DNA of 64,000 bases from Microgenomates group bacterium. GTDB lineage: Bacteria; Patescibacteriota; Microgenomatia; UBA1400; MFAQ01. Shown one piece after another: positions 8,790-35,912 of the stretch (position 1 is the stretch's first letter; every line of letters starts with the position of its first letter). A program made the position numbers and the translations under genes. The notes under the pieces are model-generated. The model made no database searches, was not told the DNA's origin, and was given only the letters and a program-made list of their open reading frames with translations. The stretch lies in NCBI GenBank assembly GCA_049303575.1, contig JBAQNH010000002.1, positions 180,717 to 244,716 on the forward strand, in the 5' to 3' direction.

Positions 8790-9401
8790 ATGGCAGATTT
8801 TGATAAATTGGTTGTTTCCTTCCTCGTTGACGAAATCGTCGGCGGTTTTTTCATTTCCGTTCCTCCAGGACACGTTGCCTGTGTTTATGATCGCGGACTC
8901 GGTGTTCTCAAGCGCGTTTGGGGTCCCGGACTTCATCTTAAGATTCCTTTTTGGCAAATAGCCAAACTTTTTAATGCTCAAATTCTTGAGTACACCATTC
9001 GCCACGGCTTTGATCTTTCTCAAAAAGAGTCTCTCGGTGATGAACCTATTACCGCTAACACCAAGGACAATAAAACCATCTCCATCGAAGGCTCGGTTCT
9101 TTTTAAGCTCGATAAAGCCAACGCCCCAGAGCTCTGGGAAAACATCGGCGACAACTTCATTTCCAAAGTTGTCCGTCCCTATTCCAGAAGTCGTATTTCT
9201 TCTGCTTTTAGTCAGTTTGATCACACCGAAATTGGTCCGGAACGAACTCAAATTGAAAACACCATCAAAAACGAACTGAACAAACTTTTTGAAGACAAAG
9301 GTCTCATCATTGAGAATGTTCTTTTTTCCGAAGTAAAAATTGTTGATACAGGCTCCAAACAGCCAGTTCAAACCATACTTTCTACCCCCGCGACCGTCTA
9401 G
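8790..9401 (+). CDS. SPFH/band-7 (prohibitin/stomatin-like) domain protein
   Basis: VPPGHVACVYDRGLGVLKRVWGPGLHLKIPFWQ is a typical SPFH-domain start. Confidence 0.6.
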   Translation: MADFDKLVVSFLVDEIVGGFFISVPPGHVACVYDRGLGVLKRVWGPGLHLKIPFWQIAKLFNAQILEYTIRHGFDLSQKESLGDEPITANTKDNKTISIEGSVLFKLDKANAPELWENIGDNFISKVVRPYSRSRISSAFSQFDHTEIGPERTQIENTIKNELNKLFEDKGLIIENVLFSEVKIVDTGSKQPVQTILSTPATV

Positions 9402-9420
9402 TTTTGTATATACTTATCCT

Positions 9421-12400
9421 ATGGCCTTGCCCAAATATTCGGTACTGCAGATTCGTCCTGCCAAAGACTCACTCACTGGTCAGGCTGCCTTTGTTGAGTT
9501 TTTAGCCTCGATCAAGTCTTCTCTCAAGGCTGGTTTTATGGATAGGCTTCTCAGCTCCTACGAAACCATTACCTTAGAAATCGCCAATCTTAGTCAAACC
9601 ACTTACTTCATTATTGCTTGTCCGGAACGTCTGGAACACCTTGTTCGTTCTCAAATTGCCGCCCAGTATCCCACGGCTCTCATTACCCCCATGAAAGACT
9701 ATCTCGTCGACTGGTTGTCTCATGGTCAGCCTCAAATAGGTCAGTTGGTGCTCTCATCTCCCTCCCAACTTCCCCTCAACGTCACCGAAGATGAAAAAGT
9801 TGACCAAATGACCGCCATTCTCGGTAGTCTCTCACGTATTCCGTCAGGTCAGGCTGCCGTAATCCAAATTTGTCTCTTCGCCGCCCCTGGAAACTGGCAA
9901 AAATCTCTTCGTAAATCGCTCGAGCCTAGACCGGTTGCCGAAGGTGAAAAATCCCAACCTAGTGCCCAAAAACCCTTCATTGAAAAAAAACTTGCCTATC
10001 AAGCCTTTGGCTGTGATATTCGCCTTGCCGCCATTTCCCAGAATGAATCGAGTTCCAGACAACTTCTTTCTCAAATTTCTGCCGCTTTCGGTACCTATTC
10101 TCTTTCCGAAGGGAATAGCTTTAAGCTCAAAGTTGTCAAACCCTCCTCTCATAAAAAACTAAAAGAAATGATTGTCGAGCGTTCGGCTAAGTACTCTAAT
10201 CAGTACCAATATCTAAACTACGCCGAAATAGCCGCCATTTATCACTTGCCTGGTGTAAATCTCGCCAACATCAAAGGTATCGCTTGGGGAAAGACCTTAA
10301 GAGGGGAGCCACCAGCAAATCTCCCCATCGCCGAAGATCTTTCTGAAGAAGAGAAGCAAGATATTAATTTCTTTGCTAAAACGGAATACAAAAACAGAAT
10401 TGTCTCCTTTGGTATGAAAAAGGGGGAGGATCGTCGTCGTCACGTATATATCTTGGGTAAATCCGGTACTGGTAAATCAACCCTCCTGTCCAACATGGCC
10501 ATCAACGATATTCGTCATGGTGAAGGCATGGCATTAGTCGATCCTCACGGGGACACCGCCGAGCATCTCTTAGACTACATCCCCTCAGACAGAATTAATG
10601 ACGTCGCCTACCTCGATCCCTCCGTCGTTGGCAAATCTTTTCATCTCAATCCTCTCTATGTTAAAAATCCGGCTTACTCGGAACTAGTCGCCTCGGGCAT
10701 AGTTTCTATTTTTAGTAAACTCTACGGCAACTCCTGGGGTCCTCGTCTGGAATATATTTTAAGAAACACTCTCCTTACTCTCGTTGGTAAGCCGGGAGCG
10801 ACCCTTCTCGATGTTCCTCGACTCCTTACTAACAAGCCCTTTAGAGAAGAATATCTTTTGGCGGTTCAGGATCCGGTTCTCCATAACTTCTGGCACGACG
10901 AATACGACAAATACTCAGAAAAATTCCAATCCGAGGCTATTTCTCCCATTTTAAATAAAGTTGGCCAGTTCATTACCTCACCCACGATTAGAGATATCAT
11001 CAGCCATCCTACTTCTACCGTCGATTTTGAAGATCTCATGAACAACGGCAAAATTATTATTCTCAATCTTCCCCAAGGCAAGATTGGTGAAGATAATGCC
11101 GCTCTCCTGGGAGCCATGTTTATTTCCCAAATTCAGATCGCCGCCATGAATCGTGCCAATATGGCCGAGACGGAGCGTAAAGACTTCTTTCTTTATGTCG
11201 ATGAGTTTCAAAACTTTGCCACCACCTCTTTTATAAAAATTCTTTCCGAAGCTCGTAAATATCGTCTTAACCTTATTCTTGCTAATCAATACACCGCCCA
11301 GCTTCCGATAGAAATTCAAGACGCTATTTTTGGTAATGCTGGCACTCTCATAAGCTTTGTCGTTGGTGCTGCTGATGCTAATCGTCTCATGAATGAACTG
11401 GGAAACTTCTACACCCAAGATGATCTCGTTGGTCTTGCTCGTTACCAAATCATCGTCAAAATTTCTGTCAACGCCTCCATTTCCAATCCTTTCTCGGCCA
11501 CGACACTACCCCTTCCGGAAAACAAAGATAACAGCCGTCAAAAAATTGTCGCGGCCAGCGAAGAACAATACTATCGTAAAACCGAGGCTCTCGACATGGC
11601 TCAAGCCTCAATTTATGCTCCCAGTGCACCCCCCAAACCCCGCTCCTATTCTCCAACCACTCCTTATCGACCTCAGCAACAAACACCCTCTTCCTCTATT
11701 AATAAAAATGAAACAATAAAACCAAGCCCAACAGTTTTTTCAAAAGAACCCTCTTTGGAAGAACTGGACAAAGACAGAAGTGAAGGTCTTCGCCCTAGTG
11801 TTGTTGGTTGTTTCTTAAACTCCGGCAAAATTCTTTTCGTTTACCAAAAAATTCATCAACTCTGGCAACTACCGCAAGGGGGAGTGGATAATCGCGAGAC
11901 CACAATCGACGCTTTCAAACGTGAAATGACTGAAGAACTAGGTGAAGATTTTGTTAAACAGTCAAGTTTCAAACCCACTTTTTTTTCTGCCGACAAAATT
12001 GAGTTTCCTCCTGACAAACAGGGTTTGCGAGAACTTAAACTCGACTCCGGTAATCCGGTCAAAATGAAAGGTAAAAAATATTATTTTCTCTACGCCACTT
12101 CTTCATCTACCGATTTGAAATTTCCTTCAGATGAAGAATATAATGATTTCAAATGGGCAAATTACAGTGAAGCTTTGGAGCTAGCAAAAACTTCTACCCA
12201 AGGAGGTAAGCTTAGAATTACAACATCAGCACTAGATATTTTAAAAAACAAAGGCCTTCTTATTTCCGGAACCAATATTAATAATCAAAGCAACAACAAT
12301 GGATCCAGATCAAACTCCAAACCTCCAACCCAACCCACTCCCATCCGACGCCCCCCAAAACCAGACGTCAACCCCATTTTCTTCCCCGATAAGTCAGGAG

Positions 12401-12552
12401 ATAACCCCACCAGCAGCTTGGAGCAGCGACCAGACTCCACCGTTAGTGTCCTCGACACCCCCGACGAGTCCGGAGCCAATCTCCCCGCCAATGTACCAGG
12501 AGATACCCCCAAAATCACCCCTCCCGGTCAAGGGAATTCCCTCATCGTCTAA
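9421..12552 (+). CDS. TraD/VirD4-like (FtsK/HerA-superfamily) ATPase fused to a C-terminal NUDIX hydrolase domain, ending in a Pro/Ser-rich tail
   Basis: Walker A YILGKSGTGKSTLL followed by ALVDPHGD. Walker B FLYVDEFQNF and ARKYRLNLILANQ are coupling-protein-like. After a P/S linker comes the Nudix box GGVDNRETTIDAFKREMTEELGE. The start was moved to ATG 9421 (MALPKYSVLQ...); the track ORF began at 9340 with a non-ATG codon. Confidence 0.7.
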   Translation: MALPKYSVLQIRPAKDSLTGQAAFVEFLASIKSSLKAGFMDRLLSSYETITLEIANLSQTTYFIIACPERLEHLVRSQIAAQYPTALITPMKDYLVDWLSHGQPQIGQLVLSSPSQLPLNVTEDEKVDQMTAILGSLSRIPSGQAAVIQICLFAAPGNWQKSLRKSLEPRPVAEGEKSQPSAQKPFIEKKLAYQAFGCDIRLAAISQNESSSRQLLSQISAAFGTYSLSEGNSFKLKVVKPSSHKKLKEMIVERSAKYSNQYQYLNYAEIAAIYHLPGVNLANIKGIAWGKTLRGEPPANLPIAEDLSEEEKQDINFFAKTEYKNRIVSFGMKKGEDRRRHVYILGKSGTGKSTLLSNMAINDIRHGEGMALVDPHGDTAEHLLDYIPSDRINDVAYLDPSVVGKSFHLNPLYVKNPAYSELVASGIVSIFSKLYGNSWGPRLEYILRNTLLTLVGKPGATLLDVPRLLTNKPFREEYLLAVQDPVLHNFWHDEYDKYSEKFQSEAISPILNKVGQFITSPTIRDIISHPTSTVDFEDLMNNGKIIILNLPQGKIGEDNAALLGAMFISQIQIAAMNRANMAETERKDFFLYVDEFQNFATTSFIKILSEARKYRLNLILANQYTAQLPIEIQDAIFGNAGTLISFVVGAADANRLMNELGNFYTQDDLVGLARYQIIVKISVNASISNPFSATTLPLPENKDNSRQKIVAASEEQYYRKTEALDMAQASIYAPSAPPKPRSYSPTTPYRPQQQTPSSSINKNETIKPSPTVFSKEPSLEELDKDRSEGLRPSVVGCFLNSGKILFVYQKIHQLWQLPQGGVDNRETTIDAFKREMTEELGEDFVKQSSFKPTFFSADKIEFPPDKQGLRELKLDSGNPVKMKGKKYYFLYATSSSTDLKFPSDEEYNDFKWANYSEALELAKTSTQGGKLRITTSALDILKNKGLLISGTNINNQSNNNGSRSNSKPPTQPTPIRRPPKPDVNPIFFPDKSGDNPTSSLEQRPDSTVSVLDTPDESGANLPANVPGDTPKITPPGQGNSLIV

Positions 12553-12984: not shown

Positions 12985-14915
<1,931 letters not shown>

Positions 14916-14944
14916 TTAAAAGGTACTAAAGGTATAAACACAAA

Positions 14945-14967
14945 AGACCCCTTACGGGGTCTTTTCT
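14945..14967 (+). terminator. Rho-independent terminator of groESL
   Basis: AGACCCC-ttac-GGGGTCT followed by TTTTCT. Confidence 0.75.
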
Positions 14968-14978
14968 ACATCCGAAGA

Positions 14979-15541
14979 ACCCCGTACAACCTACAACTGG
15001 AGCGAAGCGAAGTTGTACGGGGGTGAAGAGCACAGACTAACACACGAAGTGTGTTAATCTGTCATCATGGAAGCCAGAAGTTTGAATCACTCGGTTTACT
15101 ACCATCAGTATCACGTTGTGTGGGGTACGAAGTACAGGAGACAGTATCTCCAGGAGTACGTAAAGAAAGCCTTTGAAATATATGTCAAACGAGTAATATC
15201 TAAGTACCCCACAATTCAACTAATCAAGGTCAATACGGATATTGATCATGTTCATCTACAACTTTCAATACCGCCTAACATGGCTGTCTCACGGGTGGTG
15301 CAGAAGGTGAAACAGGAGACAAGTAAACTCCTCAAGAAAAGATTTAAGTTCATTCGAGAAATCTATCCCTTCGAGGGTATCTGGAGTGTTGGGTACTTCT
15401 CCTCAACCATCGGGCTGAATGAGGAAACTGTCACGCGGTATATCGACAGTCAAGGGAAGAGAGACAAGGGGAGACAGTACAAACTCTGGCTCCCATGATG
15501 CCGCCAAAGGAAACCCCGTACAAGCAAAGCGTAGTGCGGGG
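14979..15541 (+). mobile_element. IS200/IS605-family insertion sequence (tnpA only) with subterminal hairpins; boundaries approximate
   Basis: Left hairpin CCCCGTACAAC-(21 nt)-GTTGTACGGGG (14980-15022) and a second hairpin AACACAC-gaa-GTGTGTT (15038-15056) upstream of tnpA. Right hairpin CCCCGTAC-(9 nt)-GTAGTGCGGGG (15514-15541) downstream. Both ends share the CCCCGTACA arm, the arrangement expected for Y1-transposase IS. Confidence 0.65.
15067..15498 (+). CDS. tnpA: IS200/IS605-family Y1 (HUH) transposase TnpA
   Basis: 143 aa; YHQYHVVWGTKYRRQYL (IS200 N-terminal signature), HUH motif HVHLQLSIPP, catalytic-Tyr region GYFSSTIGLNEETVTRYIDSQ. Confidence 0.85.
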   Translation: MEARSLNHSVYYHQYHVVWGTKYRRQYLQEYVKKAFEIYVKRVISKYPTIQLIKVNTDIDHVHLQLSIPPNMAVSRVVQKVKQETSKLLKKRFKFIREIYPFEGIWSVGYFSSTIGLNEETVTRYIDSQGKRDKGRQYKLWLP

Positions 15542-15702
15542 AGGAGGTCATTTGTTGACTAAATTATTCTTATTCTTGCCATCACGTTGAAACTAGGGAA
15601 CTTAACCATCGATAATATTATCCACAAAATAAACAAGTTTTCCACACAGCACAAACAATTGATGAATCAATCAAATTATTATCTCAATCAGTTGAAAACT
15701 AT

Positions 15703-16299
15703 TTATCTCTTGTTTACCCTGCCCAAAGCCAAGTAAGGCTGAGGGTTAATATTTTTTTCGTTTTTGATCACTTCAAGATGAAGGTGGGGTCCGGTAGTTT
15801 TTCCTGTCAAACCAACCTCACCAATAGGCTTATCGGTTGTTACGGCGTCTCCCTCGTTAACGAAGACCTTACCCATGTGTGCATATAAAGAAACAGTATC
15901 ATTTCCATTATCAATCCACACGGCTCTACCATAGTCGTACCTAAGGTATTGAACCTTAATAACGACACCTTCTCTAATAGGGTAGATCTCAGACCCCAAA
16001 GGAGCTGTTAGGTCGATTCCGGGATGTCCGAAACGGAAACCCTGAGAAACGCCTGTATAAGCAGGAAGAACGTTGGCATAACTCTTACGGGTCTCAATAG
16101 GAATCTCCGTATTAAGAGTTTGTACATTTGCAGCGACCACAGACTGGTCGATTGGGAGGAATACTAGTCCGGAAGCCAAGGAGGTCATTGAAATGACTCC
16201 ACCTAAGGCGGCCTTAATAGTTTTTCCTTCGAACATCGGTCTGATGAGTTTTGAAACAGGGTTTGATGTTCTGGTTTTTGGTAGTATGTTTAGTATCAT
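15703..16299 (-). CDS. M23-family peptidase (LytM domain) with N-terminal TM
   Basis: HPGIDL..., YAHMGKV..., GLTGKTTGPHLHLEV motifs of M23 metallopeptidases. Confidence 0.85.
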   Translation of the reverse strand: MILNILPKTRTSNPVSKLIRPMFEGKTIKAALGGVISMTSLASGLVFLPIDQSVVAANVQTLNTEIPIETRKSYANVLPAYTGVSQGFRFGHPGIDLTAPLGSEIYPIREGVVIKVQYLRYDYGRAVWIDNGNDTVSLYAHMGKVFVNEGDAVTTDKPIGEVGLTGKTTGPHLHLEVIKNEKNINPQPYLALGRVNKR

Positions 16300-18567: not shown

Positions 18568-19269
18568 TTATCCATTTCTATCAAGATATGCAGAATATTT
18601 ATCACATTTGTATTTCAAGAATGGGGCATGGATAATGTCTCGGTAAATAAATTCTGAAACCATGATCGCATTTCTCCAGTTATATCTCAGTTTATAGGCC
18701 CCGTATCCATAAGAGATCGAACTCTTGATTTCTGGAAAAACACTCATAATTTTTGTTGTTAATTGTTCAAGAAACATTTTACTTCCACTCGTAAAAATAA
18801 TATTCATCCTATTCTTCTTGTTTTTCTCAATGTTGATACACCCATCTCCGTCAAAATAGCCTCGAAGGAAATATTCAAAATATTTGTTAGGTATTTCCGG
18901 TAATTTGATGACTAACGATTTTCTTGGACACAATCCTATTTTAACCAGGTCATCATAAATTTTTTTGTTTCCTATTCTGACACGATACGATGTCTTACAC
19001 CAATATTCTTTCTCTCGAATTTTAATTTTTCGAGGACCTCTTTTCTGGATTATTTGCTTAGTAGACATGGCGGCCATCATATCTTTAAGAATATCTAAGT
19101 CGTTATTTGCTAACAATATATAGCATGCCCTCGAAGATTCTCTACAATCTTCAACTGCTCCATCAGCATAAATAAATCCCAAAACGTAAGCCATTTTTGG
19201 TGACCACTTTTTAAAAAAGTTTTCATCAACCTTTTTTCTGTTATATCCACCTCTTTTGTCTTGTTCCAC
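18568..19269 (-). CDS. LAGLIDADG-family homing endonuclease (two LAGLIDADG motifs), free-standing
   Basis: Motif 1 YVLGFIYADGAV and motif 2 FLRGYFDGDGCI. GTG start at 19269. Confidence 0.8.
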   Translation of the reverse strand: MEQDKRGGYNRKKVDENFFKKWSPKMAYVLGFIYADGAVEDCRESSRACYILLANNDLDILKDMMAAMSTKQIIQKRGPRKIKIREKEYWCKTSYRVRIGNKKIYDDLVKIGLCPRKSLVIKLPEIPNKYFEYFLRGYFDGDGCINIEKNKKNRMNIIFTSGSKMFLEQLTTKIMSVFPEIKSSISYGYGAYKLRYNWRNAIMVSEFIYRDIIHAPFLKYKCDKYSAYLDRNG

Positions 19270-28152: not shown

Positions 28153-31100
28153 ATGCCGAAGACCACTCCTGAATTTGATCAAGCATACAAAAAATTAAAC
28201 GACGCCCAACGCCAAGCCGTCGATACTACCGAAGGCCCTGTTTTGGTTCTTGCTGGACCGGGTACAGGCAAAACTCAAGTTCTGGCGACAAGAATAGCCA
28301 ACATTCTTAAAGAAACCGATGCTGCTCCGGAGTCCATTCTTGCACTAACTTACACCGACGCTGCCACTCGTGAGATGAAAGAACGCCTTATAAAATTAAT
28401 CGGCAAAGATGGCTACTACGTCAAAGTCACCTCCTATCACTCCTTCTGTTCCGACATCATCTCCGAAAACCCAGAAAGATTTAGCCGACCCAAGGGTCTA
28501 AGTATTGCCACAGACCTTGAAAAAATTCAATTAATTAAAGATATTTTGGAAGGAGATACTTTTCCTCTTTTAAAACCGGCAGGTGACCCCACTTACTATC
28601 TCAAATATATTCTTGGTGCCATTGCCGATCTCAAGCGCGAAGGCTACCCCATCGATAAATACAAACAGATGGTTAATCTCCTAAAAGAAGAATTTGAAAT
28701 TGAAAAAGGGGATTTAAAAAAAGTTGCTCTCAAAGAAAAAGAAACTCTCGTCGGTAAAAATACCGACCTTCTCAAAATTTACGAAAAATATCAGGAAAAA
28801 TTGGTCGAACTTGGCCGCTACGATTTTGAAGACATGATTAACTGGGTGGTCGACGCCTTTGAAAAAGACTCCGATTTTCTCCTCACCTATCAAGAAAAAT
28901 TTCAGTACATTCTGGGAGACGAATATCAAGATACCAATAACTCCCAAAACCGCCTCATCTTTTCTCTCGCGAACTTCTGGGGTGAAGAAGCCAATGTTTT
29001 TGTTGTCGGCGACCCTAATCAAAGTATTTTTAGATTTCAGGGCGCCTCCAAAGAAAATGTACTAGAGTTCCAAAAAAGATTTCCTAATCTCAAGAAAATT
29101 GTCCTCGAACAAAACTATCGTTCCACCAAAAATCTTCTTACCGCCTCTGCTGGCTTAATCAGCGAAAGCCCTCTCCACCACACCGTCAAATTCCAAGATC
29201 TACCCATCAAGGTTGCCAAATTTAGCTCTCCTCTTTTTGAAGATGAGTTTATAACAGACACCATCAAAAGAAAAATAAGAGCAGGGGCTAAAGCCGCCGA
29301 CTTTGCCGTCATCACCAAAGACAACGCTGACATCGAAAATCTGGTGAACCTTTTCAAATCCAAAGGACTTCCATATCGCCTTGAAGGAGGTGTCGACATC
29401 CTCTCTACCCCGCTCATTTCTCAGCTCCTTAAGATTATTTCTCTCGTCACTACTTTCCAAAGCAAAACTGACGACCTCGATCTCTTTTTAGTTCTCAACT
29501 TTCCTTACTTTAAATTAAACCCGCTTTCTATTCTCAAAATTTCCCGTTACGCCCACGAAAAACACGAATCCCTTATGGACACCCTTTTCGATGCCCACCC
29601 CGAGATAAATCCAGCTGTCATTGATGTTTTCCATTTACTTCTCAGCTGGAATTCTAAAGCCTCCACTCACACTGTCCCTGAGATGTTTCAGATGATATTT
29701 CAAGAATCAGGACTCCTGGATTACATTCTTGCTCTACCCCAACCAATTCAACAGTTAAACCGTTTCGGTACTCTTTTTGAAGATGTCAAAAAACAGGCCG
29801 AAGCTTTTCCCGGTCTCGACCTATTCGGTTACGTCATTAATCTCAAAACTATGGCCGAGAATGGTTTGAAACTAGAGGAAATGGCTCTCATTGGCGACAA
29901 AAATGCCGTTACCCTCACCACCGTTTATAAAGCCAAAGGTTTGGAATGGAAAACAGTTTTCATTTATCGTTTTGCCGACACTCACTGGGGTAATCACACC
30001 AAAAGACAAATGATTAAGCTTCCTCCCGGAATTTTATCTCTCGAAGATGTAGACAAAGAAGACAAAAATGCTGAGGAACGTCGCGTCTTTTATGTCGCAC
30101 TTACCCGAGCCAAAAAAAATCTCTACCTCACCGGCTCCACCCAATATCCGTCTGCTCAAAAAATGGTTTTTCCTTCTATGTTTCTTGAGGAAATTCCCAA
30201 AAACACTCGCCAACTTATCAAAGTCAGTAAGTACCAAAAAAATGCTGAAAAAATTCTAGGCAAGCTCATGTCTGTCTCGACAACCCCGGTTCTCCATGAT
30301 GGCGAAAAAGAATACCTCAAGGAAATTATCAAAGACCTCAAACTTTCCCCAACCGCTTTAAATAAATACTTAGAATGTCACTACAAATTCAAGCTGGATA
30401 ATCTCTATCGCATTCCCCGAACTACCCCTCCATCTGCGAGTTTTGGTACCGCCGTTCACACCGCTCTTCAGTATCTCTATCTCAATTTGGAAAACACCAA
30501 AAAAGTCGAGCCGTTAAAAGTTTTTTTAAGCGACTTTGAAGTTGCCCTTCGCCGTGAAATTCTTTCAGACAGTGACTTTAAAAACTACTTGGAAAAAGGT
30601 AAAAAAGTTCTCTCCGCTTACTACGATTTTTATAAAGAAAGTTTTACTCCCGCTCTCTTCACCGAGAAAAAGTTTGGCTCCTCTCTCACTTCTCAAATTG
30701 TTCTCGATGACATTCCTCTCACCGGCAAGGCCGACAGAATTGATTTAGTGAGCAAAGCAGACAAACATGTCCGTTTCGTCGACTACAAAACCGGTCAACC
30801 AAAATCTAGAAACGACATTGAGGGTTTAAACAAAAACACGAACGGCGACTACAAACGCCAGCTGGTTTTTTACCAGCTCCTAGCCGACCTCGACAGATCC
30901 TTCTCCTACAAAGTAACCCAAAATGAACTTCAATTTATTGAAACCGACAAGGGCGGCAATTTTCACCAAGAGAGATTCAACATCACCAAAGAAGAAGTTA
31001 ATGATTTAAAGAAATTAATCAGGGAAACCATGGCCAGCATTCGTGCCCTCAACTTTGACCGCACTACAGAGTATCGTCACTGCGAACGCTGTGATTTCCG

Positions 31101-31158
31101 ATCTCACTGTTGGCCGGAAGGCTTACCGGTCACTACATCAGGATTCGAAGAGGAATAA
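28153..31158 (+). CDS. UvrD/PcrA-type SF1 helicase fused to a C-terminal Cas4/AddB-like PD-(D/E)XK Fe-S nuclease domain (AddA-like single-chain helicase-nuclease)
   Basis: Helicase motifs LNDAQRQAVD...LAGPGTGKTQVL, DEYQDTN. Nuclease motifs GKADRIDLV, VDYKTG, QLVFYQLL. Cys cluster C...C-x2-C-x5-C (HCERCDFRSHC). Confidence 0.8.
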   Translation: MPKTTPEFDQAYKKLNDAQRQAVDTTEGPVLVLAGPGTGKTQVLATRIANILKETDAAPESILALTYTDAATREMKERLIKLIGKDGYYVKVTSYHSFCSDIISENPERFSRPKGLSIATDLEKIQLIKDILEGDTFPLLKPAGDPTYYLKYILGAIADLKREGYPIDKYKQMVNLLKEEFEIEKGDLKKVALKEKETLVGKNTDLLKIYEKYQEKLVELGRYDFEDMINWVVDAFEKDSDFLLTYQEKFQYILGDEYQDTNNSQNRLIFSLANFWGEEANVFVVGDPNQSIFRFQGASKENVLEFQKRFPNLKKIVLEQNYRSTKNLLTASAGLISESPLHHTVKFQDLPIKVAKFSSPLFEDEFITDTIKRKIRAGAKAADFAVITKDNADIENLVNLFKSKGLPYRLEGGVDILSTPLISQLLKIISLVTTFQSKTDDLDLFLVLNFPYFKLNPLSILKISRYAHEKHESLMDTLFDAHPEINPAVIDVFHLLLSWNSKASTHTVPEMFQMIFQESGLLDYILALPQPIQQLNRFGTLFEDVKKQAEAFPGLDLFGYVINLKTMAENGLKLEEMALIGDKNAVTLTTVYKAKGLEWKTVFIYRFADTHWGNHTKRQMIKLPPGILSLEDVDKEDKNAEERRVFYVALTRAKKNLYLTGSTQYPSAQKMVFPSMFLEEIPKNTRQLIKVSKYQKNAEKILGKLMSVSTTPVLHDGEKEYLKEIIKDLKLSPTALNKYLECHYKFKLDNLYRIPRTTPPSASFGTAVHTALQYLYLNLENTKKVEPLKVFLSDFEVALRREILSDSDFKNYLEKGKKVLSAYYDFYKESFTPALFTEKKFGSSLTSQIVLDDIPLTGKADRIDLVSKADKHVRFVDYKTGQPKSRNDIEGLNKNTNGDYKRQLVFYQLLADLDRSFSYKVTQNELQFIETDKGGNFHQERFNITKEEVNDLKKLIRETMASIRALNFDRTTEYRHCERCDFRSHCWPEGLPVTTSGFEEE

Positions 31159-31169
31159 TATATAAATAT

Positions 31170-31853
31170 ATGCCCTTACTTTTTGTTATCCTTAGTCTCC
31201 TCGGACTCCTTCTTACCAAAAAGAAAATGACCATTGATCTATCACGTCTCGTTCATCGTTTTGGTGGTAGTCAACACTCCGCCATTATTGTTTGGAGTAT
31301 TATTTTTCTTCCGGGCACTATTGTTCATGAAATTTCCCATTTTCTTTTTGCTGCTCTTACCGGTGCCCGCACCGGTAAAGTAGAAATCTTTCCTGAGTAT
31401 TTGGAAGAAGAATTAGATGAAAAGAAAAACACACGAGTAACTCTAGGCTCCGTCCGAACTCAAAAGTTAAATCCCCTTCAGGGCTTCCTCGTCGGCATCG
31501 CCCCTTTTATTTCCGGTATGGCGCTACTCATCTGGTTAGCATCACTGCTCCAAACCAGTTATTACGCAGGCAACACCTGGATTCTTGTTTTAGAGGGATA
31601 TCTCTTCTTCACCATTGCCAACTCCTTCTTTCCTAGCTGGACGGATATTAAACAAACACTTCCTTTCGTAGTCATTTCCCTCGTCGTTGCTCTTCTTGCC
31701 TGGTATTTTGGTTTCCAAATTTTCCTCGACTCTAGCTCCTATGTTTGGACAGTTCTTGACGCTCTCTGGAAAGCTGTCTTAATCAGTATTTTCTTCAATC
31801 TTGCCATAGTTGGTATACTCTTCTTTCTACGTAAACTCTTTGAGAAAAAATAA
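31170..31853 (+). CDS. Hypothetical polytopic membrane protein with HExxH motif (putative zincin-like membrane metalloprotease)
   Basis: VHEISHFLFAALTG within a TM region, about 6 TM helices. Start set at ATG 31170. Confidence 0.45.
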   Translation: MPLLFVILSLLGLLLTKKKMTIDLSRLVHRFGGSQHSAIIVWSIIFLPGTIVHEISHFLFAALTGARTGKVEIFPEYLEEELDEKKNTRVTLGSVRTQKLNPLQGFLVGIAPFISGMALLIWLASLLQTSYYAGNTWILVLEGYLFFTIANSFFPSWTDIKQTLPFVVISLVVALLAWYFGFQIFLDSSSYVWTVLDALWKAVLISIFFNLAIVGILFFLRKLFEKK

Positions 31854-31917
31854 AAGCAAATCTTGATTTCGGGTAATATATGGTATTAAATGATATATAG
31901 ATAAACTTAATTCAACG

Positions 31918-32871
31918 ATGAATTCAATTCAGACTATTCAAGATACCTTCGATGTAAATGCAATTTATGCACATAAATTGCATAGTCTCACCAAAGGTGA
32001 TAATTATATTGAGGAAGTTAGAAGGACCATTAGCGAAAAACCAAAACCAATCGTCAAATGGGTCGGGGGAAAACGACAGTTATTGTCGCAATTTCGATTA
32101 TTAAACCTCTATCCCCCAAGTGGTTTCAACCCAAATAAATCTACATATTACGAACCGTTTGTTGGAGGCGCCGCCGTTTTTTTTGATCTTCTTCCAGAAA
32201 AAGCTTTCTTGTCAGATCTAAACAATGATCTAGTGATAACTTACAACGTAATAAAAAACGATGTTGATGAGCTGATCGATTCACTTAAAAAACACGTCTA
32301 TGAAAAAGAATATTTTCTTAGAGTTAGAAAACTCGACCCAAGGAAGCTATCGAAGATTGAAATTGCATCTCGTTTTATCTACTTAAATCGCACGTGTTTC
32401 AACGGTATGTATAGAGTAAACAAAAGTGGACAATTCAACGTTCCCTTCGGAAGATATTCAAACCCACAAATTTGTGATGAGCTCAATTTACGCAGGGCTT
32501 CAAAAGCTTTAAAAAACATTGAAATAAACTGTGAGGATTATAAAGAAGTATTAAATAAAGCCAAAAAAGGTGATTTTATTTATTTTGATCCACCATATTA
32601 CCCAATTAATTCCACGTCGTCATTTACTTCTTACACCCCTAACGCCTTTTTAGATAAAGAACAAATTGAGCTTCGGGAGACATTTGCACAGCTCAGCGAT
32701 AGAGGGTGTTACGTAATGCTTTCAAACTCAGACACTCCATTTATCAACAAAATATATTCTGAATTAAAAAATAAAGGAGTCAAAATAACAAAGATTCTAG
32801 CCGGAAGGGCAATCAACTCAAAGGCTTCGAGAAGAGGTAAAATTACCGAAGTGTTAATAACAAATTACTAA
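31918..32871 (+). CDS. Dam-family DNA N6-adenine methyltransferase (alpha class)
   Basis: KWVGGKRQLL (Dam motif I), PFVGGAAVFF, FIYFDPPYY (motif IV DPPY). It lies in an AT-rich block distinct from the flanks. Confidence 0.85.
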   Translation: MNSIQTIQDTFDVNAIYAHKLHSLTKGDNYIEEVRRTISEKPKPIVKWVGGKRQLLSQFRLLNLYPPSGFNPNKSTYYEPFVGGAAVFFDLLPEKAFLSDLNNDLVITYNVIKNDVDELIDSLKKHVYEKEYFLRVRKLDPRKLSKIEIASRFIYLNRTCFNGMYRVNKSGQFNVPFGRYSNPQICDELNLRRASKALKNIEINCEDYKEVLNKAKKGDFIYFDPPYYPINSTSSFTSYTPNAFLDKEQIELRETFAQLSDRGCYVMLSNSDTPFINKIYSELKNKGVKITKILAGRAINSKASRRGKITEVLITNY

Positions 32872-32884
32872 AAATACAAAATAA

Positions 32885-33406
32885 ATGATTACAAACGGAT
32901 TTGGAGGAGGAAATACAATTACCGGTTTAAACTTCGAAAAAGAAACAGACATACTTAGTTTGTTGAAAACTAAGAGAGACTACTCCGTTGCCGACAATAT
33001 TATTTATTTTAAAAAGAAAGAAGTAGCAAAAAGTTTCAAAAAGCATGCATTGTATCCTTTTTTAAAAACAAAAGGTGTCGATTATAAGAAAATAATTTCA
33101 AAAAAATTATTACCTGATGAAGCAATTTATGTAATTGTGAACAACACACTTTTTGTAATTGAAGTAAAGTTTCAAAAAGTCGCAGGGTCAGTCGATGAAA
33201 AATTACAAACATGTGACTTTAAAAGGAAGCAGTATGCAAAACTGATGGCACCATTAAATATTGAGGTTGAATATATCTATATTCTTAGCGATTGGTTTAG
33301 AAAATCAGAATACAAAGATGTGTTGGATTATATAATTTCAGTTGGCTGTCAGTATTATTTTCAATATCTACCATTACAAAAGTTGGGACTTCCTATCCCT
33401 GAATAA
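32885..33406 (+). CDS. Small PD-(D/E)XK nuclease-fold protein (candidate restriction endonuclease subunit)
   Basis: ...KGVDYKKIISKKLLPDEAIYVIVNNTLFVIEVKFQK...: a D...(D/E)-x-K arrangement like Hjc/REase catalytic cores. 173 aa. Confidence 0.45.
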   Translation: MITNGFGGGNTITGLNFEKETDILSLLKTKRDYSVADNIIYFKKKEVAKSFKKHALYPFLKTKGVDYKKIISKKLLPDEAIYVIVNNTLFVIEVKFQKVAGSVDEKLQTCDFKRKQYAKLMAPLNIEVEYIYILSDWFRKSEYKDVLDYIISVGCQYYFQYLPLQKLGLPIPE

Positions 33407-33431
33407 AGTCAGATTACTATTATTATCAGTA

Positions 33432-34190
33432 TTGATTAAAAAAGACATTGTACTTAATCCAGATGAGTTTGAATTGGAATGCACATCTGTGTGGGCATTC
33501 CCTCGAAGAGGAAATTGGGCAACACACACTTCTGACTGGCGAGGAAATTGGGCTCCAGAAGTAGCTAGAAATTTAATACTACGCTACACATCAGAAAATG
33601 ATTGGTTGCTTGATCCGATGGTGGGAGGTGGTACTTCCGCGATAGAAGCCAAGATTCTTAATAGACACATTATTTGCACGGATATTAACGAATTAGCTCT
33701 TATAAGAACAAAGAAATCGCTTGAATTTGATGCAAAAAACAATGCAGAGCAAAGGTTATATAAGTGTGATGCTCGAGACCTGAAAAAAATAAGTAACGGG
33801 AAAATTGACTTTGTATTAACCCATCCACCTTACGTTGATATCATCAAATACAGTGAAGGAAACATAGAAGAAGATCTTTCAAATATCCACGACTTAGATA
33901 TTTTCGCAAATGAAATGAAAAAAGTTGCAGATGAACTTTATAGGGTCCTTAAAAATGGAAAATACTGTGCAATTTTAATCGGTGATACTAGAAGAAATAA
34001 AATGTATCAACCCCTTGCCTTTAAGGTTATGGAAAGATTTATTAATGCCGGTTTTGTATTGAAAGAAGACATAATAAAAAGGCAGTTTAATTGCAAAGCA
34101 ACTGGGTTTTGGGTAAACAAATCAAAACTAAACAACTTCCTGTTAATTATGCACGAACATTTATTCGTATTTCAAAAACCTACTGTTTAG
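33432..34190 (+). CDS. SAM-dependent DNA methyltransferase (N6-adenine/N4-cytosine type; motif I before motif IV). Start uncertain: TTG 33432 or TTG 33342.
   Basis: Motif I LDPMVGGGTSAIEAKILNRHIICTDINE and motif IV FVLTHPPYVD. No in-frame ATG near the 5' end; the track ORF begins at TTG 33342 and would overlap the upstream gene by 64 nt. Confidence 0.6.
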   Translation: MIKKDIVLNPDEFELECTSVWAFPRRGNWATHTSDWRGNWAPEVARNLILRYTSENDWLLDPMVGGGTSAIEAKILNRHIICTDINELALIRTKKSLEFDAKNNAEQRLYKCDARDLKKISNGKIDFVLTHPPYVDIIKYSEGNIEEDLSNIHDLDIFANEMKKVADELYRVLKNGKYCAILIGDTRRNKMYQPLAFKVMERFINAGFVLKEDIIKRQFNCKATGFWVNKSKLNNFLLIMHEHLFVFQKPTV

Positions 34191-34194
34191 AAAA

Positions 34195-34647
34195 ATGAAT
34201 AAGCTGTTAACAGAAGATTTTGTCCAAAATAATATAATTAAATATCTTTCCAGAACTGGATGGAGTAAAAGCTTGAAATCGAAAACACTTAAGGAACACG
34301 GAGTTGATATTAAGGTCAGGAACAACAATTTTGCAAGATATTGGCTGATCGAAGTCAAGGGTGATGCAAGCGAAACAGCGAAATATCCTAGATCTCATAG
34401 AGAAGTAAACTTTAATCTCGCCTTGGGGCAAATTATCACCCGTATGCAATCGAACGGAACAAGGGGTTATAAATACAGGTATAAATATGGTGTGGGGTAC
34501 CCAACTTCATTTAAAAATCTAATTGTTCGAAGATTACCTTATGATGTGTGCGACAAACTAAATCTTTATATATTTTTAGTTGACGAAACTGGAGAAGTTG
34601 AGCTGCTCGATTGGAAAGGATTAAAGAAAATCCAATCTTCTCATTAG
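34195..34647 (+). CDS. Small Hjc-like PD-(D/E)XK nuclease-fold protein (candidate second restriction endonuclease subunit)
   Basis: ...LKEHGVDIKVRNNNFARYWLIEVKGD... closely resembles the Hjc/archaeal-resolvase and REase core (VDxx...IEVK). 150 aa. Confidence 0.45.
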   Translation: MNKLLTEDFVQNNIIKYLSRTGWSKSLKSKTLKEHGVDIKVRNNNFARYWLIEVKGDASETAKYPRSHREVNFNLALGQIITRMQSNGTRGYKYRYKYGVGYPTSFKNLIVRRLPYDVCDKLNLYIFLVDETGEVELLDWKGLKKIQSSH

Positions 34648-34661
34648 CAAAATCAATTTTA

Positions 34662-34689
34662 TTATTCCTTCACAACCTTTTTCTTAGCC
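34662..34689 (+). repeat. Imperfect direct repeat (28 nt) copying the 3' end of the zinc-ribbon gene; partner at 35147-35174
   Basis: TTATTCCTTCACAACCTTTTTCTTAGCC versus TTATTCTTTTACAACCTTCTTCTTAGCC (25/28 identical), with similarity extending about 15 nt further with an indel. Confidence 0.6.
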
Positions 34690-34904
34690 CCTTCTTTTTC
34701 TAAATTGTTCGCATACAACTTTTCCAAATGGTCACCGACAAACCTGGAAACAAATTTCTTGATACATAAATAAAATACTAATAATTTGCCCCTTTTTTCC
34801 GCAAAATTTGCTGGTTGTATTTTTGTTTTTAACAGCATAGGATTAAGGTGTAAAAAATAAAAAGGCCCCCTACAGGGAGCTCTTTAACAGAATAATGGTT
34901 TTGC

Positions 34905-34916
34905 TCTGAATAGCGC
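34905..34916 (+). repeat. 12-bp inverted repeat arm flanking the tRNA-like gene (partner 35015-35026)
   Basis: TCTGAATAGCGC ... GCGCTATTCAGA, perfect complement, 98 nt apart, enclosing the tRNA-like sequence. Confidence 0.7.
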
Positions 34917-34927
34917 ACCCGTCATTA

Positions 34928-35001
34928 CCGGGTGTAGCTCAATTGGTTAGAGCAGCTGCCTATTAAGCAGAGCGTTGGGAGATCATTCCTCCCCACCCGG
35001 A
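34928..35001 (+). tRNA. tRNA-like gene with noncanonical anticodon loop (CUAUUAA, formal anticodon AUU) and noncanonical T-loop; possible pseudo- or specialised tRNA
   Basis: Acceptor CCGGGTG/CACCCGG (7 bp), U8-A9, canonical D-arm GCTC-AATTGGTTA-GAGC, anticodon stem GCTGC/GCAGA (one G.A mismatch) with loop CTATTAA, T-stem GGGAG/CTCCC with loop ATCATTC (not TTCRANN), discriminator A. Confidence 0.45.
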
Positions 35002-35146
35002 CACCAATTAAGTCGCGCTATTCAGAACAAAGCCATCATTCAATGTACTAATTAACTATATTGACATGGTACACCCAATGTCAAGTCATAGTTCGACGAG
35101 ATTCTAGCATTTATATCAAAATGTTTCAATAAAGGATATTAATGCC

Positions 35147-35785
35147 TTATTCTTTTACAACCTTCTTCTTAGCCACTTTAGCCTTTTTAGGCTTAGCTAC
35201 TTCTTTTCCGGAAGTCATTTCAATAGTCTCAAGAATTTTTTCCGTCATATTCTTCGGTTCGGTAGGAGTCAAAAGCTTTATGATTTTGTCCAGTTTGGCG
35301 TTTAGTTCACTCAAATCCATATTTCCGGCTGCCGGTCTTTGGGAAGGAGCAAAAGATCTGGACTCACCTCTTCCACCGTCTTTTTTGGCAAAACAATCAC
35401 TACAAAGTACCGGTTTACCGTTTCTTGGTTCAAAAGGAACCTGACAATTGTCTCCACACTCATCACAAATAGCACTAAACATGGGTTTATCAAATCTGTT
35501 TCTGTCTCCAAACCCTCTGTCATTGCCTCTACTTTCGAATCTGTTTCCGCCTCTGGGTTCTTCGCCATTCATTTCACCAAAACACTTACTGCAGAAAACT
35601 TCTTTTCTACCATTAGGCTTGAAAGGAACCTGGCAACTGGAACCACATTTGGCGCACACGGCGTCAAACATTTCCTTTCGCTCGGAACCTCTGTCGTTTC
35701 CGCCTCTTGAGCCGAAACTACCCTCTCTTGGGCTGTAATACTGGCTTCTACTGTCTCCACTTCCACCTCGGTTAAAATATGTCAT
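35147..35785 (-). CDS. Protein with two CxxC-x17-CxxC zinc-ribbon repeats, an RGG/Gly-Arg-rich N-terminus and a Lys-rich C-terminus
   Basis: Repeat 1 CAKCGSSCQVPFKPNGRKEVFCSKCF and repeat 2 CDECGDNCQVPFEPRNGKPVLCSDCF. N-terminal ...NRGGSGDSRSQYYSPREGSFGSRGGNDRGSERK..., C-terminal ...KPKKAKVAKKKVVKE. Confidence 0.6.
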   Translation of the reverse strand: MTYFNRGGSGDSRSQYYSPREGSFGSRGGNDRGSERKEMFDAVCAKCGSSCQVPFKPNGRKEVFCSKCFGEMNGEEPRGGNRFESRGNDRGFGDRNRFDKPMFSAICDECGDNCQVPFEPRNGKPVLCSDCFAKKDGGRGESRSFAPSQRPAAGNMDLSELNAKLDKIIKLLTPTEPKNMTEKILETIEMTSGKEVAKPKKAKVAKKKVVKE

Positions 35786-35857
35786 ATCCTATATTATAAC
35801 ACGCTTCTCGTTTCTCACACCACTGTGTCGCGCGAGCACAGTGGACTGAGTCTCTTA

Positions 35858-35911
35858 ACAACAACTACCACCGCCACAACATCCTCCTCCGCAACATGTT
35901 TCGTTCTTCAT
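35858..35911 (-). CDS. 18-codon Cys-rich peptide ORF (MKNETCCGGGCCGGGSCC), translationally coupled to the upstream MerR-family gene; putative
   Basis: ATG lies 1 nt after the merR TAA stop. The SD-like GAGGTGA sits 6 nt upstream, inside the merR 3' end. It encodes 6 Cys in three CC pairs separated by GGG and ends TAA at 35855-35857. Downstream hairpin CCACTGTG-(9 nt)-CACAGTGG at 35819-35843. Confidence 0.4.
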
Positions 35912-35912
35912 A

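What the first reader, a model, noticed from the sequence alone, without database searches (positions are those of the whole stretch)
14979..15541. IS200/IS605-type element inserted directly after the groEL terminator
A 143-aa Y1/HUH transposase (YHQYHVVWGTKYRR..., HVHLQLSIPP, catalytic Tyr region) is bracketed by imperfect hairpins that share a CCCCGTACA arm (left 14980-15022, right 15514-15541). There is a second small hairpin just before the start codon. This is the subterminal-hairpin organisation of IS200/IS605 rather than terminal inverted repeats. No tnpB is present, so it is a minimal IS200. Insertion sequences are scarce in small streamlined genomes, and this one sits in a highly expressed chaperone locus, 20 nt after the groEL terminator. 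The surrounding 200 bp also contain two DnaA-box-like 9-mers (TTATCCACA at 15618-15626 and TTTTCCACA at 15639-15647).
Basis: partly seen in the sequence, partly recalled or inferred. Interest (0 to 1): 0.5.

Follow-up and report, generated by a model that had tools for sequence, protein, structure and literature searches.

The report
Terminator-homing IS200 element after groEL
This is a genuine 588-bp IS200-type jumping gene that landed recently on the T-run of the groEL transcription terminator, and its relatives in many tiny-genome bacteria nearly always sit directly behind terminators; it is an ordinary kind of element with an unusually tidy choice of landing site.

Summary
ORF 15067-15498 is a full-length Y1/HUH transposase (IS200 equivalog; His61, His63, Tyr125 and Gln129 intact), flanked by subterminal hairpins, with no tnpB.

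Its ends are fixed by six ~91-97% identical copies in other contexts and by an empty site in a relative whose flanks are 92-93% identical. It therefore inserted recently and is not domesticated.

The target is not TTAC. It is the TTTT tract that follows the groEL terminator hairpin, and there is no target duplication.

This holds across the clade. In 40 of 50 independent insertion contexts (full elements and 60-260-bp miniature derivatives, mostly in Patescibacteria), the left end follows a host terminator-like hairpin plus T-tail. The rate is 6.8% for T-run-matched positions and 14.7% for T-runs outside ORFs. Whether the hairpin is recognised or merely survives selection is unresolved.

Two further conserved features emerged:
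- an extended -10-like motif ending 6-7 nt before the ATG, with no Shine-Dalgarno sequence, which suggests a leaderless mRNA;
- a covarying long-range helix that pairs the start-codon and stop-codon regions and is kept as a local hairpin in the miniatures.

The DnaA-box-like 9-mers are conserved host spacer, not part of the IS. Verdict: a new member of a known family, of moderate interest.

The parts
14942..14965 (+). Host groEL intrinsic terminator, AAAAGACCCC-TTAC-GGGGTCTTTT. It reads as a hairpin plus T-run on both strands. It is not part of the IS; its last four T (14962-14965) are the insertion target.
   Evidence: (I11). The same hairpin and T-run are present in the empty-site relatives L133 and L134.
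14966..15553 (+). The complete insertion sequence, 588 bp, an IS200 group member (tnpA only).
   Evidence: Homology with independent copies L144 and L145 spans positions 1-588 and 1-587 of this interval at 91.5% identity. Seven insertions share ...C-TTTT|CTACATCCGAAG. Conservation among relatives stops at ...GGAGGTCATTT|. The net insertion relative to the empty site L133 is 588 nt.
14966..14979 (+). Left-end leader CTACATCCGAAGAA between the cleavage point and the hairpin foot. Its last 4 nt, AGAA (14976-14979), occupy the position of the IS608 'guide' tetranucleotide.
   Evidence: The positional analogy with IS608 comes from PMC3201880. Guide/target pairing was not established here.
14980..15022 (+). 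Left subterminal hairpin, 11-bp perfect stem and 21-nt loop; presumed TnpA binding site.
   Evidence: (I6). Conserved with compensatory changes in relatives (CCCCGCAC...GTGCGGGG).
15032..15062 (+). Second hairpin, ending 4 nt before the ATG. Its 3' arm carries an extended -10-like motif TGTTAATCT (15052-15060), 6 nt upstream of the ATG.
   Evidence: (I3). TGnTAnnnT ends 6-7 nt before the ATG in 16 of 18 distinct full elements, and none has a Shine-Dalgarno-like motif. Promoter function is inferred.
15067..15498 (+). tnpA, a 143-aa Y1/HUH transposase with HUH = His61-Val-His63, catalytic Tyr125 and Gln129.
   Evidence: The alignment to ISHp608 TnpA (2a6m, E 1.2e-17) aligns the IS608 DHIHI segment with DHVHL and QYIENQ with RYIDSQ.
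15063..15084 (+). 5' arm of a long-range helix; it covers the start codon and the first codons.
   Evidence: (I1).
15480..15500 (+). 3' arm of the long-range helix; it covers the last five codons and the stop codon.
   Evidence: Across 15 distinct elements, 92.8% of cells pair in register against 29-46% when slid by 1-3 nt. Several Watson-Crick pair types occur at positions 6-11. The helix is present in the MFE and centroid ssDNA folds and is kept as a local hairpin in the miniature derivatives.
15510..15541 (+). Right-end 'guide'-position GAAA (15510-15513) plus the right subterminal hairpin CCCCGTAC...GTGCGGGG (15514-15541). The T.G pair exists only on the top strand.
15542..15553 (+). Right-end tail AGGAGGTCATTT. 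The presumed right cleavage site ATTT| ends the element 12 nt 3' of the hairpin.
   Evidence: The tail is invariant in relatives and followed by unrelated flanks.

Best explanation
Positions 14966-15553 are an intact, autonomous 588-bp insertion sequence of the IS200 group of the IS200/IS605 family.

Shown here:
- It encodes a complete Y1/HUH transposase.
- It has subterminal hairpins rather than terminal inverted repeats.
- It makes no target duplication.
- It is absent from the same locus in close relatives.
- Copies 91-97% identical lie in at least six other contexts.

Inferred, by homology with IS608 and ISDra2: it moves by single-strand 'peel and paste'. A TnpA dimer binds the two top-strand hairpins. 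It cuts 5' of the leader (after the host TTTT) and after the terminal ATTT, releases a single-stranded circle, and pastes it 3' of a T-tract in single-stranded target DNA.

Shown for the clade: the chosen T-tract is almost always the one directly after a host intrinsic-terminator hairpin. The element is co-oriented with the terminated gene, so it splits the T-rich terminator tail. In the window the target was the groEL terminator (GGGGTC-TTTT|). The hairpin and four proximal T stay with groEL.

Inferred: I favour the view that a T-tract at the foot of a folded hairpin is a preferred substrate (an accessible single strand next to a duplex). Selection then reinforces this, because the site is harmless to the host and shields tnpA from read-through.

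Inferred: tnpA is expressed from an extended -10 promoter in the second hairpin as a leaderless mRNA. Its 5' AUG can be closed off by pairing with the stop-codon region. The same helix may also bring the two ends together in single-stranded DNA.
For: Protein:
- Pfam and NCBIfam matches are full length and well above cutoff.
- The catalytic residues align with the ISHp608 TnpA structure.

Ends and mobility:
- Relatives at 75% TnpA identity lie in different contexts, and conservation stops at the same two points.
- Six copies of the same IS type (LE 97% identical; two full copies 91.5% over 1-588) lie behind six different hairpins, all with C-TTTT|CTACATCC.
- Empty sites exist in L133 (flanks 92-93% identical) and L134 (79-81%), with terminator and T-run intact.
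- L001 and L002 from two other samples are 100% identical and occupied.

Terminator association:
- 40 of 50 independent contexts (44 by eye) have a terminator-like hairpin plus T-tail.
- The comparison rates are 2.0% at random positions, 6.8% at T4-run-matched positions and 14.7% at T4 runs outside ORFs of at least 100 aa (binomial p 1e-37 and 1e-24).
- Hairpin sequences differ between copies of one element, so they are host DNA.
- Right flanks are T-enriched at +1 to +4 (45-54% against 28% background, 127 flanks).
- The association is clade-specific: IS1541A-like copies in a Rickettsia-endosymbiont plasmid (44.5% TnpA identity) are not behind terminators.

Single-strand logic:
- T.G and G.T pairs occur on the top strand only.
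- The top strand lies on the locally G-rich strand in 67 of 93 loci (p 2.5e-5), as expected for lagging-strand-template targeting described in PMC5027513.

Architecture: LE cleavage 5' of its hairpin and outside the IS, RE cleavage 3' of its hairpin and inside the IS, as in IS608 (PMC3201880).

Expression features.
Against: - No transposition or cleavage was observed; activity is inferred from intactness and presence/absence polymorphism.
- Only one copy lies in the 64-kb window, and only one context was found for the exact protein. The rest of the 704-kb contig could not be scanned.
- The window copy sits on the C-rich strand (skew -0.165 with genes on both strands). That is the minority orientation for the clade and not the one expected for lagging-strand-template insertion.
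- Guide/target base pairing of the IS608 type could not be demonstrated. Elements with different 4-nt 'guides' (GAAA, AGAA, ACAA, TAAA) mostly have the same TTTT flank.
- The six bases to the right of the IS (GTTGAC) differ at 4 of 6 positions from the empty-site allele (TATTAT), although the next 60 nt are about 90% identical. This is unexplained.
- Hairpin recognition is not separated from a sequence-only target plus purifying selection.
- The helix statistics chose the best gapless partner within a region, and the sequences are related, so they overstate independence.
Confidence: 0.85

Rival explanations
1. Same IS, but the terminator association is not recognition. The transposase needs only a short sequence target ((C)TTTT). 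Insertions elsewhere (in genes, promoters or operons) are purged in these compact genomes, so the survivors pile up at terminator tails, where C-TTTT is naturally common.
For: - The 7 window-type insertions all have C-TTTT|, which is simply the last stem base plus the T-run of a terminator.
- About 87% of the control loci is inside ORFs, so purging would be strong.
- A minority of elements (6-10 of 50) are not behind recognisable terminators.
- IS608 needs only a tetranucleotide (PMC3201880).
Against: - Only 14.7% of T4 runs outside ORFs have such a hairpin, against 80% of insertions.
- Small non-coding miniatures, which should be less harmful elsewhere, show the same rule.
- The hairpin-to-junction distance is a constant 4 nt in 7 of 7 window-type insertions.
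Confidence: 0.4
2. A fossil or domesticated tnpA: a single-copy Y1 transposase gene fixed at this locus that no longer moves, perhaps co-opted by the host.
For: - One copy in the window, and one context for the exact protein.
- The copy is identical in three samples.
- Canonical IS200 is notoriously dormant (PMC4513863).
Against: - There is an empty site in a relative with 92-93% identical flanks.
- The ORF, catalytic residues and both ends are intact.
- Copies 91.5% identical lie at six other sites, several at contig ends, which is typical of multi-copy repeats.
Confidence: 0.07
3. A REP-associated tyrosine transposase (RAYT) with its REP-like repeats, rather than an IS.
For: - The Pfam family is the same (PF01797).
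- The gene is single-copy.
- The clade has many short hairpin-bearing miniature repeats in intergenic DNA.
Against: - The best NCBIfam model is the IS200 equivalog.
- There are no dispersed REP-like copies in the 64-kb window.
- The miniatures are internally deleted copies carrying both IS ends.
- The gene itself is mobile together with its ends.
Confidence: 0.02
4. The flanking hairpins and the shared arm are coincidental.
For: The RE hairpin is not significant by folding energy alone (z -1.5).
Against: - The 12-mer repeat exceeds all 100 shuffles.
- Both hairpins are conserved, with compensatory changes, in every relative examined, and the RE motif recurs at least 119 times in public genomes.
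Confidence: 0.01

Closest known systems
IS200 of Salmonella and IS1541 of Yersinia (IS200 group, IS200/IS605 family)
   Same: - A single tnpA gene for a ~140-150-aa Y1/HUH transposase, with no tnpB.
- A left end with two inverted repeats, the second lying just before the start codon. In canonical IS200 these are at nt 12-34 and nt 69-138 of 707 bp (PMC4513863). Here they are at nt 15-57 and 67-97 of 588 bp.
   Different: - TnpA is less than 45% identical to anything in the plasmid collection, including 'IS1541A family' genes.
- The element is shorter.
- There is no Shine-Dalgarno sequence to sequester (canonical IS200 has AAGGGGGU); instead there is an extended -10-like motif 6 nt before the ATG.
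- The left hairpin is not followed by a T-run, so the terminator in front of tnpA is the host's, not the element's.
- No Rfam family matched the region (E-value up to 1).
- IS1541A-like copies that I checked are not behind terminators.
IS608 of Helicobacter pylori (mechanistic paradigm; TnpA structures 2a6m, 2vjv)
   Same: - TnpA aligns at E 1e-17 with HUH, Tyr and Gln conserved.
- Left cleavage lies 5' of the left hairpin and outside the element; right cleavage lies 3' of the right hairpin and inside it.
- There is an A-rich tetranucleotide just 5' of each hairpin foot.
- There is no target duplication.
- The top strand shows a bias towards the G-rich (lagging-template) strand.
   Different: - No tnpB.
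- The target is a T-tract, not TTAC.
- The leader is 14 nt rather than 19 nt, and the right cleavage falls 12 nt 3' of the right hairpin; in IS608 the TCAA site lies 10 nt from the hairpin foot (PMC3201880).
- Guide/target pairing was not demonstrable here.
- IS608 is not known to require or prefer a hairpin next to its target.
Bacterial class C group II introns (own knowledge, not tested here)
   Same: Mobile elements that home to the T-rich sequence just after intrinsic-terminator hairpins, a site that is harmless to the host and structurally recognisable.
   Different: An unrelated mechanism (ribozyme and reverse transcriptase retrohoming) with no homology; this is an analogy only.
Palindrome-associated transposable elements / MITEs derived from IS200/IS605 (own knowledge)
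   Same: The clade has 60-260-bp non-autonomous derivatives that keep both ends and lose tnpA. The same miniature is found at several sites (L048/L099/L123, L075/L100, L120/L129).
   Different: - Here the deletion leaves the start/stop helix as a local hairpin, giving a regular four-hairpin layout.
- One-hairpin versions of about 60 nt also exist (L017, L029, L132).

Membership tests
IS200/IS605 family | Encodes a Y1 (HUH plus single catalytic Tyr) transposase of the PF01797 type | tested here: met
   PF01797 E 1.2e-28 over profile positions 1-121 of 121. NF033573 scores 107 bits against a cutoff of 55. His61/His63, Tyr125 and Gln129 align with ISHp608 TnpA.
IS200/IS605 family | Subterminal imperfect palindromes at both ends instead of terminal inverted repeats | tested here: met
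   Hairpins at 14980-15022 and 15514-15541 share their 5' arm as a direct repeat, not an inverted one. They are conserved in relatives.
IS200/IS605 family | Insertion 3' of a short specific sequence without target-site duplication; left cleavage site outside the element, right cleavage site inside | tested here: met
   Seven insertions have C-TTTT|CTACA.... The element ends in an invariant ...TCATTT| followed by unrelated flanks. The empty site L133 shows no duplicated bases.
IS200/IS605 family | Mobility: the same element in different genomic contexts, with occupied and empty alleles | tested here: met
   Six other contexts for the same IS type. Empty sites in L133 and L134.
IS200/IS605 family | Cleavage sites read by base pairing with a 4-nt guide 5' of each hairpin foot | tested here: inconclusive
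   A-rich tetranucleotides (AGAA, GAAA) sit at the guide position and the cleavage sites are T-rich (TTTT, ATTT), which is compatible. However, guide variants (ACAA, TAAA, GAGAA) do not show matching flank changes.
IS200/IS605 family | Strand-specific single-strand excision as a circle and integration into single-stranded DNA | not testable with these tools
   Only indirect evidence is available: wobble pairs occur on the top strand only, and the top strand is on the G-rich strand in 67 of 93 loci.
IS200 group (tnpA only) | No tnpB or iscB accessory gene within the element | tested here: met
   In the 588-bp element, the 432-nt tnpA ORF plus 101 nt of left end and 55 nt of right end fill it entirely.
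Isoform of canonical IS200 or IS1541 | High identity to the named element (ISfinder practice, own knowledge: about 95% amino-acid or 90% DNA identity) | tested here: not met
   The best match in 72,556 plasmid records is 44.5% identity; all 2633 matching records are below 60%.
RAYT/REP system | Single-copy Y1 gene flanked by inverted REP sequences, with many dispersed REPs in the genome | tested here: not met
   There are no other copies of either end motif in the 64-kb window. The best family model is the IS200 equivalog. The rest of the genome was not available.

The most novel reading that the evidence does not exclude
This IS200 clade is a structure-guided 'terminator-homing' single-strand transposon. 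The integration complex prefers a T-tract at the foot of a folded hairpin, a target defined by shape as well as sequence, unlike IS608. The element also depends in cis on a covarying helix that closes the whole tnpA ORF. That helix would bring the two ends together in single-stranded DNA, which is why the miniatures keep it, and would switch off the leaderless mRNA once it is fully transcribed.
Probability: 0.3. Interest if true: 0.55.

Novelty: new member of a known kind. Interest (0 to 1): 0.35.

Why it matters
For the window itself, this is routine annotation. It gives an exactly delimited, recently inserted IS200 in a ~0.7-Mb Microgenomates genome, with groESL and its terminator hairpin left intact.

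The wider pattern is more useful.
- A well-defined IS200 lineage and its miniature derivatives are widespread in Patescibacteria and sit almost exclusively on terminator tails.
[quoted passage not shown] In this clade the terminators are host ones, not part of the IS.
- It offers a simple system for asking whether a Y1 transposase can read a hairpin-adjacent target.
- It suggests a safe-harbour strategy that lets an IS persist in gene-dense genomes.
- It flags that short-read CPR assemblies break at these copies.
- The leaderless-mRNA and start/stop-helix arrangement would be a new variant of IS200 self-restraint, if confirmed.

Tried and rejected
- Further copies or miniatures in the window: none found by blastn, tblastn or end-motif searches.
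- Left end at 14968 with a TTCT target complementary to the AGAA 'guide': rejected. All seven copies share CT after the T-run, and the net insertion is 588 nt, not 586.
- IS608-style guide/target covariation across the clade: inconclusive.
- My impression that the element always sits at the 3' edge of the T-tract: rejected. 127 right flanks are T-enriched at +1 to +4.
- Replication origin at the DnaA-box-like 9-mers: no GC-skew switch anywhere in the window. Only one perfect box is present, and near-matches are spread along the window. The boxes are host spacer, conserved in empty-site relatives.
- Known RNA families such as the IS200 antisense RNA: no Rfam match at E <= 1.
- A sigma-70 -35/-10 promoter inside the left end: none from the consensus scan.
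- Terminator association as a general property of the IS200 group: not seen in IS1541A-like copies of a Rickettsia-endosymbiont plasmid.
- My first terminator detector missed obvious cases, including the window, and one run timed out; both were rewritten.
- Literature: I found no paper describing terminator targeting by a specific IS200 lineage or IS200 in Patescibacteria. The nearest is the 2026 survey.

Full report
WHAT IS IN THE SEQUENCE

The window carries groES (12985-13293) and groEL (13296-14915) on the + strand. After groEL comes a hairpin, AAAAGACCCC-TTAC-GGGGTCTTTT (14942-14965).

Downstream lies a 143-aa ORF (15067-15498). It matches Pfam Y1_Tnp over the full profile (E 1.2e-28) and the NCBIfam IS200/IS605 equivalog at 107 bits against a cutoff of 55. 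Aligned with the solved ISHp608 TnpA (2a6m, E 1.2e-17), the HUH histidines (His61, His63), the catalytic tyrosine (Tyr125) and the neighbouring glutamine (Gln129) are in place.

- 14980-15022, an 11-bp perfect stem;
- 15032-15062, just before the ATG;
- 15514-15541, with one T.G pair.

The two outer hairpins share a 12-nt direct repeat, AACCCCGTACAA, more often than any of 100 shuffles. NCBI already annotates the identical protein as an IS200/IS605 family transposase in a 'Microgenomates group bacterium' MAG, on a 704-kb contig.

EXACT ENDS, EMPTY SITE AND MOBILITY

The closest other proteins (75-76% identity) lie in unrelated contexts. Alignment shows conservation stopping at ...GGAGGTCATTT| on the right and near the T-run on the left.

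A scan of JGI metagenomes with the left-end pattern found six loci (L143-L148) carrying the same IS type.
- Their left ends are 97% identical to the window's.
- Two full copies are 91.5% identical over positions 1-588 of my interval.
- Each copy sits behind a different hairpin.
- All share ...C-TTTT|CTACATCCGAAG.

The M23 peptidase gene downstream of the element (15703-16299, - strand) led to two contigs from close relatives.
- L133 has flanks 92-93% identical to the window; L134 has flanks 79-81% identical.
- In both, the groEL terminator and its T-run are followed directly by the ~190-nt spacer and the peptidase gene, with no IS.
- The window has 588 nt more than L133 between conserved anchors.

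The element is therefore 14966-15553 (588 bp). It inserted after TTTT (14962-14965) without a target duplication, after these lineages diverged. Two Logan assemblies from other samples are 100% identical to the window and occupied. Within the 64-kb window it is single copy.

THE TERMINATOR POSITION IS THE RULE FOR THIS CLADE

Most are in Patescibacteria MAGs, with a few labelled Bradyrhizobium, Gammaproteobacteria, Bdellovibrionales or Nitrospirales. Many lie at contig ends, and several genomes hold three to eight hits.

Of the 58 matches in all loci fetched up to then that had a full 800 nt of upstream sequence, half have tnpA. The other half are miniature derivatives of 60-260 bp that keep both ends.

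I curated 50 independent left junctions and applied one detector to cases and controls. The criterion was a terminator-like hairpin plus T-rich tail ending 8-40 nt upstream of the left hairpin foot.

| Set | Positive | Rate |
|---|---|---|
| Insertion contexts | 40 of 50 (44 by eye) | 80% |
| Random positions in the same loci | 106 of 5235 | 2.0% |
| T4-run-matched positions | 344 of 5059 | 6.8% |
| T4 runs outside ORFs of at least 100 aa | 284 of 1930 | 14.7% |

The binomial p-values are 1e-37 against the T4-run-matched rate and 1e-24 against the rate for T4 runs outside ORFs.

The hairpins differ between copies of the same element and are present in the empty site, so they are host terminators, not IS sequence. 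Right flanks are T-enriched at +1 to +4 (45-54% T against 28% background, 127 distinct flanks). The element therefore splits the T-rich tail.

The rule does not hold for the whole IS200 group. Six IS1541A-like copies on a Rickettsia-endosymbiont plasmid (44.5% TnpA identity, the best match in the plasmid collection) lie in AT-rich DNA without terminators.

A 2026 survey reported terminator-like sequences over-represented immediately upstream of ISs, most strongly for IS200/IS605, and explained this by the internal terminator of Salmonella IS200 (PMC13548323). In the clade studied here the terminators belong to the host.

HOW IT MOST LIKELY WORKS

The layout matches the IS608 paradigm (PMC3201880).
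- The left cleavage point is outside the element, 14 nt 5' of the left hairpin.
- The right cleavage point is inside the element, 12 nt 3' of the right hairpin.
- An A-rich tetranucleotide (AGAA on the left, GAAA on the right) sits at the 'guide' position.
- Wobble pairs exist only on the top strand.
- Over 93 loci the top strand lies on the locally G-rich strand in 67 (p 2.5e-5). This direction is expected if the lagging-strand template is the substrate (PMC5027513).

I therefore infer single-strand peel-and-paste transposition. I could not show guide/target covariation.

Whether the hairpin is part of target recognition is open.
- For recognition: the excess over neutral-looking T-runs, the same rule in the tiny miniatures, and the constant 4-nt spacing in the seven window-type insertions.
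- For sequence plus selection: C-TTTT is what a terminator tail looks like anyway, these genomes are about 87% ORF, and 6-10 of the 50 junctions lack a terminator.

The window copy lies on the C-rich strand, which is the minority orientation.

EXPRESSION AND STRUCTURE FEATURES

Sixteen of 18 distinct full elements have TGnTAnnnT ending 6-7 nt before the ATG, and none has a Shine-Dalgarno-like motif. This suggests an extended -10 promoter in the 3' arm of the second hairpin and a leaderless tnpA mRNA. That is inference only.

Every full element also has a helix between the start-codon region and the stop-codon region; in the window these are 15063-15084 and 15480-15500. In 15 distinct elements:
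- 92.8% of cells pair in register, against 29-46% when slid by 1-3 nt;
- positions 5-13 pair at 91%, against a partner-shuffled mean of 68.5% and a maximum of 81% in 1000 shuffles;
- several Watson-Crick pair types occur at positions 6-11.

The helix appears in both the MFE and the centroid single-strand folds of the whole element (z = -5.1). In most of the 18 miniatures I folded it survives as a local hairpin, giving the layout LE hairpin, second hairpin, third hairpin, RE hairpin.

The helix could hide the 5' AUG once the transcript is complete, bring the ends together in single-stranded DNA, or simply be the site where replication slippage deletes the ORF. The partner search and the relatedness of the sequences mean these statistics are indicative, not proof.

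COMPARISON AND VERDICT

The element meets every testable defining feature of the IS200/IS605 family and of its tnpA-only IS200 group. It is not an isoform of named IS200 or IS1541 (below 45% identity), and it is not a RAYT/REP system.

- the ends are 14966 and 15553;
- the target is a T-tract, not TTAC-like;
- the terminator position is a target preference of the clade;
- this clade is common, not scarce, in streamlined Patescibacteria genomes.

It is a new member of a known kind. Interest is moderate, carried by the terminator-homing pattern and the start/stop helix rather than by the insertion itself.

Noticed in passing
window 15610-15650: The DnaA-box-like pair (TTATCCACA 15618-15626, TTTTCCACA 15638-15646) lies in the spacer between the convergent groEL and M23-peptidase genes. 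It is the best-conserved part of that spacer in relatives L133, L134 and L135, all of which lack the IS. There is no GC-skew switch in the window, so nothing points to an origin. The function of this conserved block is unknown.
   Followed up: partly
window 15554-15559: The six bases immediately right of the IS (GTTGAC) differ at 4 of 6 positions from the empty-site allele of L133 (TATTAT), while the following ~60 nt are about 90% identical. This may be local hypervariability or a trace of the insertion event; it is unexplained.
   Followed up: no
window 18568-19269 (- strand): A free-standing 233-aa LAGLIDADG-type ORF (PF14528, E 2e-12) lies next to the GAPDH gene. A 234-aa LAGLIDADG-like ORF is also present in L135. 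It is a second gene of a mobile-element type in the window.
   Followed up: partly
window 9340-12552 (+ strand): A 1070-aa ORF upstream of groES combines a HerA/DUF87-like ATPase region with a C-terminal NUDIX domain. The Logan and NCBI relatives carry it in the same position (called DUF8128 + NUDIX).
   Followed up: no
L135 4598-5093 (NCBI GCA_035477615.1): In this relative (85% peptidase identity) the groEL-peptidase spacer is 497 nt and holds a 96-aa ORF with no Pfam hit, instead of an IS or the short spacer. Something else has been inserted or retained there.
   Followed up: no
L017, L029, L132 (also L105): Some elements of about 60 nt have a single hairpin: left-end leader, one hairpin, then the right-end tail AGGAGGTCATTT. 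They again sit directly after terminator T-runs. They look like the product of recombination between the similar 5' arms of the two hairpins, which form a 12-nt direct repeat in the window copy.
   Followed up: partly
window 30000-36000: GC content drops to 0.36-0.37 against 0.42 for the window, and the GC skew is much weaker than in the flanking DNA. This may be a compositionally foreign segment.
   Followed up: no
whole window: The + strand is C-rich throughout (GC skew -0.02 to -0.28) although long ORFs are split about evenly between the strands. The whole window therefore lies on one replichore arm, and groESL is probably on the lagging strand.
   Followed up: partly
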